Origin: a bacterium
GTDB taxonomy: Bacteria > Ratteibacteria > UBA8468 > B48-G9 > DTJG01
Direction: 5' to 3'
DNA: 59,090 bases
NCBI GenBank assembly: GCA_029552985.1
Contig: JAKPDB010000121.1
Coordinates: 1 to 59,090 of the forward strand
Shown here piece after piece: positions 3,808-40,009 of the stretch. The notes under the pieces were generated by a model. The model worked only from the letters and a program-made list of their open reading frames with translations. It did no database searches and was not told the origin of the DNA. How positions within the stretch are numbered: the first letter of the stretch is position 1; the number at the start of each line of letters is the position of its first letter. Made by a program: the position numbers and the translations under genes.

Positions 3808-4867
3808 AATTTGTGAAATCAAACCATGTGATACCCAACGGTATGAAGTAATAAGAAAATTTCTTCCTGAAAAAATCATTGATGTTCATACTCACCTCTG
3901 GAGAAAAAGGGACTATCCTGTTCAAAAAAAACATGATCCGAGGTTTGTAACCTGGCCATCAAGAGTTGCAGAAGAAAATCCCATTGAAGACCTTATTGAA
4001 ACTTATAAAGTTCTACTTCCAGGCAAACAGGTAGTTCCTGTCATGTTTCCAAACTTACCATCAGGAAATAACCTGGACGCTATCAATAGTTATGTCAGCG
4101 ATTGTTCAAAAAAAACCGGATACCCTGCTTTGATTTTCAGCGACCCTGAGTGGGCTTCTGAAGAACTTGAAGAAAGAATTATACAAGGGAATTTTATTGG
4201 GGCTAAAAGTTATATGAGTATGCTTCCTGAAACAATACCTCCTAATAACATCAATATTTTTGATTATTTTCCAAAACATCAACTTGAAATTCATGATAAA
4301 AATGGGTGGATTGTGATGCTCCATATTCCAAAAGAAGGGAGATTGAAGGACCCGGAAAATTTAAAGAATCTCTGTGAAATTGACAGAATTTATGAAAATA
4401 TTCAGGTCATTGTTGCGCATGTTGGAAGAGCTTACTGTAATCATGATGCGGGAAATGCCTTTGAAATATTGAAGAAAACAAAAAGAATTATGTTTGATAT
4501 CAGCGCCAATACCAATGAGAATATCTTTTCCATGCTGATTGAATGTGTTGGACCTGACAGAATTCTTTTTGGTTCAGACATGCCCATTACAAGAATGAGG
4601 ATGAGAAGAATTGAAAAAGATGGAATTTATGTAAATCTTGTGCCAAAAGGACTTTATGGAGACGTGTCCCGGGATAAACATATGGCTGAAATTGATGGAA
4701 TTGAAGCAGAAAATCTTACATTTTTTCTGTATGAAGAAATCGATGCTTTCAGAAAAGCATGCGAAAGGCAAAAGCTCAAAGATGATGACATTGAAAAAAT
4801 TTTTTATAAAAATGCTCTGAACATGATTGAAAAAGCAAAAAAGTGGAGGAAGTATGTTGATCATTAA
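3800..4867 (+). CDS. Amidohydrolase family protein (Amidohydro_2-like)
   Basis: IIDVHTH metal motif, IVAHVGR, RILFGSDMP; start moved to ATG 3800, overlapping the upstream stop. Confidence 0.85.
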   Translation: MNKICEIKPCDTQRYEVIRKFLPEKIIDVHTHLWRKRDYPVQKKHDPRFVTWPSRVAEENPIEDLIETYKVLLPGKQVVPVMFPNLPSGNNLDAINSYVSDCSKKTGYPALIFSDPEWASEELEERIIQGNFIGAKSYMSMLPETIPPNNINIFDYFPKHQLEIHDKNGWIVMLHIPKEGRLKDPENLKNLCEIDRIYENIQVIVAHVGRAYCNHDAGNAFEILKKTKRIMFDISANTNENIFSMLIECVGPDRILFGSDMPITRMRMRRIEKDGIYVNLVPKGLYGDVSRDKHMAEIDGIEAENLTFFLYEEIDAFRKACERQKLKDDDIEKIFYKNALNMIEKAKKWRKYVDH

Positions 4868-37145: not shown

Positions 37146-37895
37146 ATGAATAATCACATATCAGCAATAATCCTTGCAGCTGGCTACGGCAAACGACTCG
37201 GCGGAGAAAATCAAAAAACATTGACTCAGATACTCGGTAAACCCATTCTTGTTTACTTAATGTCTACAGTTAAACAGTGCAACCCGAAAAAAATTGTCGT
37301 AGTTGTTGGATTTCAAAAAGAAAAGGTAATGGAACAATTGAAAGGAGAACCTGTAATATTTGTTGAGCAAAAACAATTACTCGGTACAGGTCATGCAGTA
37401 ATGACAGCCGAAAATGTCCTTTCAGATTTCTGTGGAAATGTGATTGTTTTGTGTGGAGATGTACCTTTTCTTTCTTTTGAAACGATCAATAAACTAAAAG
37501 AGACGCATGAAAATACTCATGCTGATTGTACAATTCTTACTGCCATTGTTGACTCGCCATATGGATATGGCAGGATCGTAAGGGATGTGTCAAACAATAT
37601 AACAAAGATTGTTGAAGACATCAATGCTTCAGATGAAGAAAAGCAAATTAAAGAAATTAATGCCGGAGTTTATATCTTTAAAAATAAAATCCTCTTTGAA
37701 TCCCTGAAGAAAATAAAACCAAACCCTGTAAAAAATGAGTACTATCTTACTGATGTGATTGAAATTTTTATATCAGAAGGAAGAAAAGTTTCTACATGGA
37801 CAACACCATCTCCTGAAGAAACTATAGGAATTAACACTCCTGAAGATCTGGAGAAAGCCCTGCAATACATTTCAAGTTTAAGGAGAAAACAATGA
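37146..37895 (+). CDS. GlmU N-terminal (uridyltransferase) domain only
   Basis: ILAAGYGKRL, QLLGTGHAV, CGDVP, GYGRIVRD, EINAGVY, EYYLTD; ends at GINTPEDL with no beta-helix acetyltransferase domain. Confidence 0.85.
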   Translation: MNNHISAIILAAGYGKRLGGENQKTLTQILGKPILVYLMSTVKQCNPKKIVVVVGFQKEKVMEQLKGEPVIFVEQKQLLGTGHAVMTAENVLSDFCGNVIVLCGDVPFLSFETINKLKETHENTHADCTILTAIVDSPYGYGRIVRDVSNNITKIVEDINASDEEKQIKEINAGVYIFKNKILFESLKKIKPNPVKNEYYLTDVIEIFISEGRKVSTWTTPSPEETIGINTPEDLEKALQYISSLRRKQ

Positions 37896-38821
37896 ATAAC
37901 TGTCTGATTTTCACGGGAAATGCTAATAGACCTCTTGCAGAAAAAATATGTGAGTTTCTTGGAAAACCATTGGGACAAATGGAGGTTTCAAGATTTAATG
38001 ACGGTGAAATCTCAGTAAAAATAGAAGAAAACGCAAGGGGAAAGGATGTGTTTATCATCCAGCCAACCTGCGCTCCTGTCAACGAGAATCTCATGGAACT
38101 CTTGATTATTCTCGATGCCTTCCGCAGAGCATCTCCCCGTAGAATTACAGCAGTTGTACCATATTATGGCTATGCGCGACAGGACAGAAAAGACAGACCA
38201 AGGGTCCCAATAACAGCAAAACTGGTAGCAAATCTCCTTGTTGCCGCAGGTGCCCAGAGGATATTAACGATGGACCTTCATGCACCCCAAATTCAGGGCT
38301 TTTTCGATATTCCGGTTGACCATCTTTTTGCTGCTCCTGTGATTATTACCTACATCAGGAGCAAGAACCTAACCAATCCTATTGTCGTTGCGCCTGATGT
38401 TGGAAGTGTAAAAATGGCAAGGGCATTTGCAAAAAGAATCAATGCGCGACTGGCAATAGTGGATAAAAGAAGGGATAACCCTGATTCAGTTGAAGCAACC
38501 CATCTGATTGGTGATGTCTCCAACTGCGAAGCAATTATTGTTGACGACTTAATCTCAACGGGAAACACTGTTGTTGAAGCCACCAAAGTACTTCTTGAAA
38601 ACGGAGCGTCAAAGGTTTTTGTCAGTTGCACGCATCCAGTTCTTTCAGGAAATGCCATTACAAAACTCGCAAGCGCCGGAATCACAGAAATTATTGTAAC
38701 TGATACAATTCCTCATCAATCATTACCTGAGCCGTTTACTGTCCTTTCTGTGGCTGAATTACTTGGCGAAGCCATAAAGAGGATACATCAGGAAACATCA
38801 GTAAGTTCGCTTTTTATTTAA
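37892..38821 (+). CDS. prs: Ribose-phosphate pyrophosphokinase
   Basis: RFNDGE, PYYGYARQDRKD, DLHAPQIQGFFD, VAPDVG, IVDDLISTGNT. Confidence 0.97.
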   Translation: MNNCLIFTGNANRPLAEKICEFLGKPLGQMEVSRFNDGEISVKIEENARGKDVFIIQPTCAPVNENLMELLIILDAFRRASPRRITAVVPYYGYARQDRKDRPRVPITAKLVANLLVAAGAQRILTMDLHAPQIQGFFDIPVDHLFAAPVIITYIRSKNLTNPIVVAPDVGSVKMARAFAKRINARLAIVDKRRDNPDSVEATHLIGDVSNCEAIIVDDLISTGNTVVEATKVLLENGASKVFVSCTHPVLSGNAITKLASAGITEIIVTDTIPHQSLPEPFTVLSVAELLGEAIKRIHQETSVSSLFI

Positions 38822-38823
38822 CA

Positions 38824-38898
38824 TCATCCCATTGAGGGTTTTTTTCTGTGGTTGGCCCTTTTTGATCGCCACCTGAGTTTTCGTTTTTTTCTTCTCAT
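38824..38898 (-). CDS. 24-aa highly basic small protein, bL37-like candidate
   Basis: ATG AGA AGA AAA AAA CGA AAA CTC AGG TGG CGA TCA AAA AGG GCC AAC CAC AGA AAA AAA CCC TCA ATG GGA TGA = MRRKKRKLRWRSKRANHRKKPSMG; SD AGAGGA and a dedicated promoter. Confidence 0.7.
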   Translation of the reverse strand: MRRKKRKLRWRSKRANHRKKPSMG

Positions 38899-38937
38899 CT
38901 TTTCCTCTTGTTAACGAAGTTAGATACTGTGGCATAT

Positions 38938-38966
38938 AGTATACAGTCAGTGCTACCATCAGTCAA
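38938..38966 (-). promoter_or_regulatory. Near-consensus sigma70 promoter of the 24-aa ORF
   Basis: TTGACT-17 nt-TATACT on the minus strand, about 40 nt upstream of ATG 38898; no other minus-strand gene lies downstream to explain it. Confidence 0.7.
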
Positions 38967-39040
38967 TTTCAAAAATTCTCAATTTCAGGTTATAATGCTT
39001 GTAAAATAAGAGATCTTGTAAATCATAAAAGGAGGAAAGA

Positions 39041-40009
39041 TTGAAATATCTAATCACAGGAGGTGCTGGATTTATTGGTTCCCATCTTGTTGACGCACTT
39101 CTTTCTGATCCAACCTCTGATGTTACTGTTATTGACGACCTTTCCACTGGTTCCATTGAAAACATCAGGCACCATTTGAAAAACCAAAACTTTCATCTGT
39201 TTATTGATAGTATTCTGAATCGTTATATCGTTGAACAACTGTGTATGCAGGTAGACTTTATTTTTCACCTTGCGGCTTCAGTGGGAGTGAAAACGGTTCT
39301 TGAAAAACCACTTGAATCAATTGAAATAAACATTGAAGGAACAAGAAATGTCTTCAATGCAGCAGCAAAATATAAAAAACCAGTTCTTTTCACATCAACC
39401 TCTGAGATATACGGCAAGAATGAAAAAGTCCCGTTTACTGAAGAGGATGATATCATTATTGGCAGCCCCTCAAAAAAAAGATGGGGATATGCCTGCAGTA
39501 AAGCACTGGACGAATTCCTGGCACTTGCATATGCAGAAGAGAAAAATCTGATGGTTATAATAGTAAGGTTATTTAATACAGTGGGGCCCAGACAGACAGA
39601 AAAATACGGGATGGTACTTCCAAGGTTTATAAAACAGGCGCTTTCGAACCAGCCAATCACGATATTCGGTGATGGTACCCAAACAAGATGTTTCACGCAT
39701 GTAAAAGATTCTGTTACAGCACTTATTAAGCTTTCAACTCTTGCTCAGGCACACCGACAGATTGTTAATGTGGGCAGTACTGAAGAAATTTCAATTCTTC
39801 AACTTGCACAACTGGTAAAAAGAGCCACAAAAAGTAATTCTGAAATTGTTTTTATAAAACCTGAAACGATATATCGAAGTGGTTTTGAAGATATGACAAG
39901 AAGAGTACCTGACATTTCAAAATTAAAAAGTTTAACAGGCTTTTCGCCTTCCATGCCAATTGAACAAATCGTAAAAGACACTGTTGATTTTTATTCAACC
40001 TGCAAATGA
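39041..40009 (+). CDS. NAD-dependent epimerase/dehydratase (nucleotide-sugar)
   Basis: LITGGAGFIGSHL, FHLAA, STSEIYG, YACSK, RLFNTVGPRQ. Confidence 0.92.
   Translation: MKYLITGGAGFIGSHLVDALLSDPTSDVTVIDDLSTGSIENIRHHLKNQNFHLFIDSILNRYIVEQLCMQVDFIFHLAASVGVKTVLEKPLESIEINIEGTRNVFNAAAKYKKPVLFTSTSEIYGKNEKVPFTEEDDIIIGSPSKKRWGYACSKALDEFLALAYAEEKNLMVIIVRLFNTVGPRQTEKYGMVLPRFIKQALSNQPITIFGDGTQTRCFTHVKDSVTALIKLSTLAQAHRQIVNVGSTEEISILQLAQLVKRATKSNSEIVFIKPETIYRSGFEDMTRRVPDISKLKSLTGFSPSMPIEQIVKDTVDFYSTCK

What the first reader, a model, noticed from the sequence alone, without database searches (positions are those of the whole stretch)
38824..38966. Unannotated 24-aa Arg/Lys-rich gene resembling ribosomal protein bL37, outside Actinobacteria
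Seen: a self-contained transcription unit in the prs-epimerase gap: TTGACT-17-TATACT promoter, AGAGGA SD, and ORF MRRKKRKLRWRSKRANHRKKPSMG (13 of 24 residues R/K), converging on prs. It is below the ORF-track cutoff. Established, recalled from memory and needing verification: mycobacterial bL37, found in M. smegmatis ribosome cryo-EM structures, is about 24 aa with a sequence like MAKRGRKKRDRKHSKANHGKRPNA and is regarded as actinobacterial. The RKKR...SK-ANH-K-P pattern and the length match. Inference: a lineage-specific small ribosomal protein or rRNA-binding peptide in a PVC-like bacterium, which would widen the bL37 family or define a new one. This is the strongest candidate in the window for something undescribed.
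Basis: partly seen in the sequence, partly recalled or inferred. Interest (0 to 1): 0.8.

Follow-up and report, generated by a model that had tools for sequence, protein, structure and literature searches.

The report
Unannotated bL37-like ribosomal peptide gene
The 24-codon Arg/Lys-rich reading frame is a real, strongly conserved gene that gene finders miss; it belongs to a widespread, unannotated branch of the tiny large-subunit ribosomal protein bL37, which papers still describe as specific to Actinobacteria.

Summary
The ORF (38824-38898, minus strand; MRRKKRKLRWRSKRANHRKKPSMG), its TTGACT-17-TATACT promoter and its AGAGGA ribosome-binding site are all present as described.

**Real gene.**
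- A 24-codon ortholog is found in 45 of 52 genomes of the same order of Candidatus Ratteibacteria, including all 28 that are at least 90% complete.
- Synonymous sites are saturated (pS 0.76) and pN is 0.08.
- Only this frame is open in all 30 orthologs examined.

**Wider family.** It belongs to a multi-phylum family with the core KL-x-WRSK-(K/R)-ANH-G-(K/R)-K-P, found in Ratteibacteria, Omnitrophota, Scalindua and other Planctomycetota, Chloroflexota and Nitrospinota.

**Link to bL37.**
- The family aligns to mycobacterial plus planctomycete bL37 at hhalign probability 95% (score 34; none of 200 column shuffles exceeded 21).
- Its members hit only the two bL37 models among 18,950 NCBIfam families, all below cut-off. 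Shuffled peptides hit nothing.
- Each genome examined carries one bL37-type gene, of one subtype.

**Limits.** Ribosome binding is inferred, not shown. The window peptide itself reaches bL37 only through intermediate sequences. bL37 outside Actinobacteria is already covered by the NCBIfam planctomycete model. This is therefore a new branch of a known family, of moderate interest.

The parts
38824..38898 (-). 24-codon CDS plus TGA stop, encoding MRRKKRKLRWRSKRANHRKKPSMG, a bL37-like peptide of the 'WRSK' subtype
   Evidence: ORF listing. Orthologs are found in 45 of 52 genomes of the order. pN is 0.078 against pS 0.76, and only this frame is open in 30 of 30 orthologs. The family profile aligns to bL37 at hhalign probability 95.4%.
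38903..38908 (-). Shine-Dalgarno-like AGAGGA, 4 nt upstream of the ATG
   Evidence: Sequence read. Same-genus orthologs carry AGAGGA, AGAGGG, GAAGGA or AAGGAG at the same place.
38938..38966 (-). Sigma-70-like promoter TTGACT-17-TATACT
   Evidence: Consensus scan, 10 of 12 matches. A TGTATAAT or TGTATACT -10 box recurs upstream of the gene in several same-genus orthologs: L002, L003, L006, L010, L017.
37892..38821 (+). prs (ribose-phosphate pyrophosphokinase), the convergent neighbour; its stop codon lies 2 nt from the peptide's stop
   Evidence: Pfam PF13793 4.5e-54. The convergent prs arrangement is kept in 13 of 13 Ratteibacteria-type loci but in none of the 67 loci from other phyla.
39041..40009 (+). 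NAD-dependent epimerase/dehydratase gene, transcribed divergently from the peptide gene; context only
   Evidence: Pfam PF01370 8.7e-54. A plus-strand promoter-like site at 38968..38996 lies back to back with the peptide's promoter.

Best explanation
The ORF is a genuine protein-coding gene for a 24-residue polycationic peptide. It is the Ratteibacteria member of a divergent, so far unannotated branch of the bL37 family, with the core KL-x-WRSK-(K/R)-ANH-(G/R)-(K/R)-K-P.

By homology (inferred, not shown), the peptide is made from its own promoter and ribosome-binding site. [quoted passage not shown] There, bL37 of mycobacteria and Cutibacterium bridges 23S helices H39, H40, H72 and H89 and the 5S rRNA as an electrostatic brace.

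The ANH-x-(K/R)-(K/R)-P segment is the shared rRNA-docking core. The Leu-x-Trp-Arg-Ser segment is specific to this branch, and its Trp may stack on an rRNA base; that last point is speculative.
For: **Shown: a real gene.**
- 36 of 41 relatives, and 28 of 28 genomes at least 90% complete, carry an ORF 83-100% identical to it. Each of the 30 extracted has the same 24 codons, an ATG start and the stop at the same place.
- With the family profile, 45 of 52 genomes of the order match at E <= 6e-11. The seven without a match are all under 90% complete.
- pS is 0.76 and pN 0.078. Variable columns number 21, 12 and 6 of 24 at codon positions 3, 1 and 2. Only the coding frame is open in all 30 orthologs.

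**Shown: a wider family.** A scan of one genome per GTDB species found 150 confirmed loci. The 80 kept come from MAGs labelled Ratteibacteria, Omnitrophota, Scalindua/Brocadiaceae, Planctomycetota, Chloroflexota/Limnocylindria, Nitrospinota and Hinthialibacteria. Most have SD-like sequences upstream.

**Shown: the link to bL37.**
- 9 of 10 family members hit only NF047428 and/or NF047429 among 18,950 NCBIfam models (E 7e-4 to 8, with ANH in register). Nine shuffled versions hit nothing.
- hhalign of the family (A2) against Myco plus Plancto bL37 (A3) gives probability 95.4%, E 2e-8, score 34.3. Two hundred column shuffles gave mean 9.0, sd 2.6, maximum 20.6.
- Five of the seven PDB hits of the family profile are bL37 chains, with weak E-values of 0.26-3.1.

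**Shown: one gene per genome.**
- Among 151 Planctomycetota genomes, 32 match the Plancto-type model and 44 match the WRSK-type profile. The 5 genomes that match both do so at the same locus.
- None of the 15 WRSK-carrying genomes tested has an above-cut-off Myco-type bL37. The best sub-threshold hit in four of the five genomes with any hit falls on that genome's WRSK locus. The C. glutamicum control is positive.

**Shown: not bS22.** This genome encodes a separate bS22 homolog.

**From the literature.** The site and role of bL37 are described in PMC10085706 and PMC10618245.
Against: - The window peptide itself gives no hit to either bL37 model, to PDB, or to my Myco plus Plancto profile. Homology is therefore transitive, through Scalindua, Omnitrophota and Chloroflexota intermediates.
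- All hmmscan hits of family members lie below the curated cut-offs (7-20 bits against 30 and 40).
- The shared core is only about 9 residues in a low-complexity peptide.
- The Ratteibacteria form replaces two residues that are invariant in Myco and Plancto bL37: Gly after ANH becomes Arg, and Arg before Pro becomes Lys.
- No neighbouring ribosomal genes were found in any phylum.
- The two other family-level lineages of the same class lack any detectable copy, in 0 of 13 genomes. The peptide is therefore not indispensable for this kind of ribosome.
Confidence: 0.75

Rival explanations
1. It is a real conserved peptide, but the bL37-like core is convergent. The WRSK family would then be an independent polycationic RNA- or DNA-binding peptide, acting at another ribosomal site, on the nucleoid, or as an RNA chaperone.
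For: - The window peptide has no direct hit to bL37 models.
- All family hits are sub-threshold.
- The shared motif is short.
- In one family of relatives (f2) the gene is translationally coupled (ATGA) to a Lys/Ala-rich histone-tail-like micro-ORF.
Against: - hhalign gives 95% probability, and no column shuffle of 200 came close.
- Only bL37 models are hit among 18,950 families, and shuffled peptides hit none.
- The subtype distribution is strictly one per genome and mutually exclusive with Plancto-type and Myco-type bL37.
- The MAK/MGK start, total length and position of the core are also alike.
Confidence: 0.15
2. The peptide is a secreted or released cationic antimicrobial or toxic peptide, and not a structural ribosomal protein.
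For: C. acnes bL37 and bS22 inhibit growth of some bacteria in disk assays (PMC10085706). The peptide is extremely cationic.
Against: - It has no signal peptide, no hydrophobic or amphipathic segment, and no immunity or export genes nearby.
- It is a single-copy, vertically conserved gene with saturated synonymous sites across an order and several phyla. That pattern is typical of housekeeping genes, not of bacteriocins.
Confidence: 0.04
3. The region is not protein-coding in function. It would be an antisense or convergent transcript regulating prs, or a leader or regulatory micro-ORF.
For: The gene converges on prs with a 2-nt gap and no terminator, so the transcripts probably overlap. This arrangement is conserved within Ratteibacteria.
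Against: - The codon-position pattern and pN/pS of about 0.1 show selection on the amino-acid sequence.
- The same peptide is conserved in other phyla without prs nearby.
- No gene lies downstream on its strand for it to lead.
Confidence: 0.02
4. It is a member of another tiny ribosomal protein family (bS22/mS38/eL41, Thx or bL38).
For: Its composition and length are similar. RKKRK...HRKK strings resemble bS22.
Against: - The genome encodes its own clear bS22 homolog elsewhere: MPCGRKRKRRKIKTHKRKKRLRALRHKKRKR, E 8e-7 to PDB 7jil_5 and 5e-6 to Borrelia 8fmw_V.
- The family profile finds bL37 chains in PDB, and no bS22, Thx or bL38 chain among its hits.
Confidence: 0.02

Closest known systems
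bL37 of Actinomycetota (M. smegmatis MAKRGRKKRDRKHSKANHGKRPNA, PDB 5O60 chain 3; M. tuberculosis 7KGB; C. acnes 8CRX; NCBIfam NF047428 ribo_Myco_bL37)
   Same: - 24 residues, Lys/Arg-rich, and a stand-alone gene.
- The core SK(x)ANH-x-(K/R)(K/R)P sits at the same distance from the C-terminus.
- One copy per genome.
   Different: - The window peptide has L-x-W-R-S before the core.
- It has Arg instead of the invariant Gly after ANH, and Lys instead of Arg before Pro.
- It gives no hit to the model.
- The host phylum lacks uL30, which mycobacteria have.
Planctomycete bL37 (NCBIfam NF047429 ribo_Plancto_bL37; e.g. MAKTQRKLKKANHGRRPASAKARKQKRKHIKF)
   Same: It shares RKLK...KANHG(K/R)(K/R)P. It occurs in a phylum that also lacks uL30. 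Within Planctomycetota it is mutually exclusive with the WRSK type.
   Different: The Plancto type lacks the WRS(K) insertion and has a basic C-terminal extension of about 14 residues. The Ratteibacteria form ends 3 residues after the Pro.
WRSK-type peptides of Omnitrophota, Scalindua, Chloroflexota and Nitrospinota (unannotated; e.g. MGKRKRRGKLNWRSKKANHGRKPNLG, MAQTRKRRKLKWRSKKANHGKKPNMGKQKGQI)
   Same: These belong to the same family as the window peptide. They are 58-83% identical to it, and L, W, S, K, A, H and the C-terminal G are invariant.
   Different: The Ratteibacteria form has the shortest N- and C-termini and usually ANHR instead of ANHG. These peptides are not described in the papers I could search. 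Earlier agents of this scan noted the Omnitrophota form.
N-terminal helical extension of Borrelia burgdorferi uL30 (PMC10618245)
   Same: It occupies the bL37 pocket (H39-H42, H89, 5S) and so does the same job with a different gene architecture.
   Different: It is fused to uL30. Ratteibacteria have no uL30 at all.
bS22 (AURKAIP1/COX24-like; PDB 7JIL chain 5, 8FMW chain V)
   Same: It is another tiny polycationic ribosomal protein that annotation misses.
   Different: It is a small-subunit protein of a different sequence family. This genome encodes it separately.

Membership tests
bL37 (broad family: Myco-type plus Plancto-type) | Very short (24-33 aa), Lys/Arg-rich, stand-alone ORF | tested here: met
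   24 aa, 13 of them K or R, with its own promoter and SD.
bL37 (broad family: Myco-type plus Plancto-type) | Conserved core K-A-N-H-G-(K/R)-R-P near the C-terminus of the Myco form | tested here: inconclusive
   - The window peptide has R-A-N-H-R-K-K-P. A, N, H and P are kept, but Gly becomes Arg and Arg becomes Lys.
- One Ratteibacteria ortholog and most other WRSK-type members keep ANHG.
bL37 (broad family: Myco-type plus Plancto-type) | Statistically supported sequence homology to known bL37 | tested here: met
   - At family level, hhalign gives 95.4% probability and score 34.3, against a shuffle maximum of 20.6.
- Only bL37 models are hit, and shuffled peptides hit none.
- For the window peptide alone, no direct hit.
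bL37 (broad family: Myco-type plus Plancto-type) | One gene per genome, replacing rather than accompanying other bL37 subtypes | tested here: met
bL37 (broad family: Myco-type plus Plancto-type) | Physically bound in the 50S pocket under the 5S rRNA tip (H39, H40, H72, H89) | not testable with these tools
   This needs cryo-EM or mass spectrometry of ribosomes. The AF2 model of a 32-aa family member was uninformative (pLDDT 63).
NCBIfam NF047428 ribo_Myco_bL37 (equivalog) | Score at or above the 30-bit curated cut-off | tested here: not met
   The window peptide gives no hit. Family members score 7-19.7 bits. It is not a member of this equivalog.
NCBIfam NF047429 ribo_Plancto_bL37 (equivalog) | Score at or above the 40-bit curated cut-off | tested here: not met
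   There is no hit in the window peptide or anywhere in its genome. Family members score 7-15.7 bits. It is not a member of this equivalog.
bS22 / AURKAIP1-COX24 | Sequence similarity to solved bS22 chains | tested here: not met
   Neither the peptide nor the family profile hits any bS22 chain. A different ORF of the genome does.

The most novel reading that the evidence does not exclude
bL37 is not an actinobacterial speciality. It would be an old, widely distributed large-subunit protein with at least three sequence subtypes (Myco, Plancto, WRSK). It would cover Actinomycetota, Planctomycetota, Omnitrophota, Ratteibacteria, Chloroflexota and Nitrospinota, and would reach into mitochondria. 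Residues 62-89 of the Tetrahymena mitoribosomal protein deposited as 'mL102' (PDB 6Z1P chain AQ) match the bL37 profile at E 1.7e-5, and that protein sits between the central protuberance and the L7/L12 stalk. The family would have been lost repeatedly, for instance in two of the five Ratteibacteria family-level lineages sampled, and it occurs both with and without uL30.
Probability: 0.4. Interest if true: 0.65.

Novelty: new member of a known kind. Interest (0 to 1): 0.5.

Why it matters
Papers describe bL37 as Actinobacterium-specific and discuss it as a possible handle for narrow-spectrum antibiotics near the peptidyl-transferase centre. If the WRSK-type peptides are true bL37 orthologs, three things follow.
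- The protein is a common, systematically unannotated component of ribosomes in several large, mostly uncultivated phyla. Only one of the six Ratteibacteria variants looked up is in the 15-billion-protein collection, and it carries no name.
- Ribosomal-protein inventories and completeness marker sets for these phyla are missing a gene.
- The current NCBIfam models need a third sibling.

The finding also gives a clean natural comparison: sister lineages with and without the peptide, all lacking uL30. That comparison could show what the bL37 pocket contributes.

Tried and rejected
- **Direct searches with the window peptide found nothing useful.** NCBIfam gave only a spurious IscB hit at E 1.6, Pfam gave nothing and PDB gave nothing. 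Searches of the window's genome with NF047429, NF047428 and my Myco plus Plancto profile also gave nothing.
- **The exact-sequence look-up was almost empty.** Five of six Ratteibacteria variants are absent from the collection, and the sixth is unnamed.
- **Structure prediction was uninformative.** AlphaFold2 on the 32-aa Scalindua member with the family alignment gave pLDDT 63, pTM 0.17 and essentially no secondary structure. I ran no fold search.
- **Synteny gave no support.** The convergent prs arrangement is kept only within Ratteibacteria, and no ribosomal neighbours appear in other phyla.
- **The idea that the peptide compensates for loss of uL30 is rejected.**
  - uL30 is absent from all 65 genomes of the phylum, including the lineages without the peptide.
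  - Chloroflexota, Nitrospinota and Actinobacteria carriers do have uL30.
- **The idea that the other Ratteibacteria orders hide a diverged copy found no support.** They have no small basic ORF downstream of prs and no hit with either profile.
- **The overlapping 53-aa ORF (38798..38959, minus strand) is rejected.** Its frame is closed in most orthologs.

Full report
**1. Observation**

The feature is present exactly as described.
- The minus-strand ORF 38824..38898 starts with ATG and encodes MRRKKRKLRWRSKRANHRKKPSMG.
- AGAGGA lies at 38908..38903, 4 nt before the ATG.
- The consensus scan finds TTGACT-17-TATACT at 38966..38938 on the minus strand, matching 10 of 12 positions. It found 5 promoter-like sites in the 600-nt region, against 1.4 +/- 1.1 in shuffles.
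- The flanking genes are prs (37892..38821) and an NAD-dependent epimerase/dehydratase (39041..40009).
- The peptide gene converges on prs with 2 nt between the stop codons, and no intrinsic terminator is detected.

**2. It is a real gene**

A six-frame search of 40 relatives found an ORF 83-100% identical to it.
- It was found in 36 of 41 genomes and in 28 of 28 genomes at least 90% complete. These cover 9 genera and 3 families of one order.
- With a profile of the variants (A1), 45 of the 52 genomes of that order match at E <= 6e-11. The seven without a match are all under 90% complete.
- All 30 extracted orthologs have 24 codons, an ATG start and a stop at the same place.
- Nucleotide divergence is high but almost all synonymous. 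pS is 0.76 (saturated) and pN is 0.078.
- Variable columns number 21, 12 and 6 of 24 at codon positions 3, 1 and 2. Only the coding frame is open in all 30 orthologs.

Record titles of the closest loci name the organisms 'Candidatus Ratteibacteria bacterium' or 'Candidatus Omnitrophota bacterium'. GTDB holds only 65 species for this phylum.

The gene is essentially unannotated. Five of six peptide variants are absent from a collection of 15 billion proteins, and the sixth has no name.

**3. It belongs to a multi-phylum family**

I scanned one genome per GTDB species with patterns derived from A1. The scan gave 150 tblastn-confirmed loci, of which 80 were kept. Extracting the ORFs shows a family with the core KL-x-WRSK-(K/R)-ANH-G-(K/R)-K-P. 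It is 24-36 aa long and mostly preceded by GGAG-type ribosome-binding sites.

Members come from MAGs with these labels:
- Omnitrophota, for example MGKRKRRGKLNWRSKKANHGRKPNLG.
- Scalindua/Brocadiaceae, for example MAQTRKRRKLKWRSKKANHGKKPNMGKQKGQI.
- Other Planctomycetota.
- Chloroflexota and Limnocylindria, for example MSKGQKKQKTTGKLGWRSKKANHGRKPGMGRGKRN.
- Nitrospinota and Hinthialibacteria.
- One MAG labelled Thermoleophilaceae.

In the alignment (A2), M, L, W, S, K, A, H and a C-terminal G are invariant.

**4. Relation to bL37**

NCBIfam holds two bL37 models: NF047428 (Myco, 24 positions) and NF047429 (Plancto, 32 positions). bL37 is therefore already recognised outside Actinobacteria by NCBI's curators. 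[quoted passage not shown]

The window peptide itself hits neither model, and no NF047429 match exists anywhere in its genome. Several results nevertheless link the family to bL37.
- Nine of ten WRSK-type members hit these two models and nothing else among 18,950 families. The E-values run from 7e-4 to 8, all below cut-off, with the ANH motif in register.
- Nine composition-matched shuffles hit no family at all.
- I recovered true Plancto-type sequences, such as MAKTQRKLKKANHGRRPASAKARKQKRKHIKF, from Planctomycetota genomes. I aligned them with the three actinobacterial PDB sequences to make A3.
- Profile-profile comparison of A2 against A3 gives probability 95.4%, E 2e-8 and score 34.3 over 19 columns. 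Two hundred column shuffles of A2 gave mean 9.0, sd 2.6 and maximum 20.6. The resemblance is therefore not compositional.
- The A2 profile searched against all PDB sequences returns bL37 chains as 5 of its 7 hits, with weak E-values of 0.26-3.1.

**5. One gene per genome, with mutually exclusive subtypes**

- In 151 Planctomycetota genomes, 32 match NF047429 and 44 match A2. The five genomes on both lists match at the same locus. Only one listed genome (G065) has more than one match, and neither of its two weak NF047429 matches is at its WRSK locus.
- Seven Scalindua or Planctomycetota carriers of the WRSK type have no above-cut-off Plancto-type gene.
- Fifteen WRSK carriers from several phyla have no above-cut-off Myco-type gene. 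The best sub-threshold hit in four of the five genomes with any hit falls on that genome's WRSK locus. The Corynebacterium control is positive.
- In the window's genome the motif [KR]ANH.[KR][KR]P occurs once in 4.4 million six-frame residues.

This is the pattern expected of orthologous subtypes of one protein, not of separate families.

**6. What it is not**

- It is not bS22. The same genome encodes MPCGRKRKRRKIKTHKRKKRLRALRHKKRKR elsewhere, a clear bS22 homolog (E 8e-7 to 7JIL chain 5 and 5e-6 to Borrelia 8FMW chain V).
- It is not a leader peptide or a purely antisense element. Selection acts on the amino-acid sequence, and the peptide is conserved in phyla where prs is not nearby.
- Nothing suggests a secreted toxin. 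There is no hydrophobic segment and no export or immunity genes nearby.

**7. Mechanism (inferred)**

[quoted passage not shown] It contacts H39, H40, H72 and H89 of 23S rRNA, close to the peptidyl-transferase centre (PMC10085706). In Borrelia, an N-terminal extension of uL30 fills that pocket (PMC10618245).

By homology I propose that the Ratteibacteria peptide docks in the same place through its ANH-x-KKP core. The L-x-W-R-S segment would be a subtype-specific addition. This step is not shown, and three facts weigh against it.
- The core is short.
- The Ratteibacteria form changes two residues that are invariant in the Myco and Plancto types (Gly to Arg and Arg to Lys).
- The two other family-level lineages of the class (13 genomes) have no detectable copy of any subtype, either genome-wide or downstream of prs.

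uL30 is absent from all 65 genomes of the phylum, while 13 of 14 controls were positive. In this genome uS5 and uL15 are separated by about 10 nt. uL30 is also absent from the 13 Planctomycetota genomes tested, but it is present in Chloroflexota and Nitrospinota carriers. The peptide is therefore not simply a substitute for uL30.

**8. Things that led nowhere**

- AlphaFold2 on a 32-aa family member gave pLDDT 63 and no secondary structure.
- The large protein-homology tools refuse queries this short.
- Gene neighbourhoods in other phyla contain no translation genes.

**9. Verdict**

The peptide is a new, unannotated member, and a distinct sequence subtype, of the known bL37 family. It is found in Ratteibacteria and several other phyla.

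It is neither lineage-specific nor categorically new. NCBIfam already extends bL37 to Planctomycetes, and earlier agents of this scan reached the same reading for the Omnitrophota form. Those are unchecked AI notes; I re-derived the relation independently here.

My confidence is about 0.97 that it is a real gene, about 0.85 that it is a bL37 homolog, and about 0.7 that it occupies the bL37 site. Interest is moderate.

Noticed in passing
Own genome contig C18:65430-65525 (+), outside the window: An unannotated-looking 31-aa ORF, MPCGRKRKRRKIKTHKRKKRLRALRHKKRKR, with an AAGGAG ribosome-binding site. It is a clear homolog of ribosomal protein bS22 (PDB 7JIL chain 5, E 8e-7; Borrelia 8FMW chain V, E 5e-6). 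It hits no NCBIfam or Pfam model.
   Followed up: partly
Relatives L004, L005, L007, L008, L012, L013, L021-L024, L028-L030, immediately upstream of the peptide gene; own genome C45:20682-20750 (+): - In one family of relatives, a Lys/Ala-rich micro-ORF of 26-73 aa (e.g. MRKLAKAKKTVKKAAKKTAKKKCASKKK) ends in a TGA that overlaps the peptide's ATG (ATGA). This suggests translational coupling.
- The window's genome has a similar 22-aa gene elsewhere, MACAKKAAKKKTAKKTAKKKKK, with a GGAGG ribosome-binding site and a hairpin-plus-T-run terminator.
- Its function is unknown. It may be another ribosome- or nucleic-acid-associated micro-protein.
   Followed up: partly
Own genome C70:4410-5292, and all 65 genomes of the phylum: uL30 (rpmD, PF00327) is absent from the whole phylum (0 of 65 genomes; 13 of 14 control genomes positive). 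In this genome uS5 ends at C70:4850 and uL15 starts at 4861. The 13 Planctomycetota genomes tested also lack it, while Chloroflexota and Nitrospinota carriers of the peptide have it.
   Followed up: yes
PDB 6Z1P chain AQ (Tetrahymena thermophila mitoribosome, deposited as 'mL102'), residues 62-89: RNARPPKKANHGARPCSSVMRRLKKKYF matches my Myco plus Plancto bL37 profile at E 1.7e-5 (28 bits), including the Plancto-type C-terminal extension. The paper places this protein between the central protuberance and the L7/L12 stalk and reaching the A-site tRNA (PMC7326499), and does not mention bL37. It may be a mitochondrial bL37 relative. Plant 'mL102' is an unrelated PPR protein.
   Followed up: partly
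window 38819-38826: The prs stop codon and the peptide's stop codon lie on opposite strands, 2 nt apart, with no terminator-like hairpin on either strand. The convergent transcripts must overlap or end inside each other's coding region. The arrangement is kept in all 13 Ratteibacteria-type loci.
   Followed up: partly
window 38938-38996: Two promoter-like sites lie back to back: on the minus strand for the peptide (38966..38938) and on the plus strand, TTCAAA-17-TATAAT (38968..38996), for the epimerase gene.
   Followed up: no
Genomes G052-G064 (other orders of the same class), loci L132-L144: These 13 genomes have prs but no small basic ORF downstream of it. They give no genome-wide hit to the WRSK or the Myco plus Plancto bL37 profiles. 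Within one small phylum, sister lineages therefore differ in having or lacking the peptide.
   Followed up: yes
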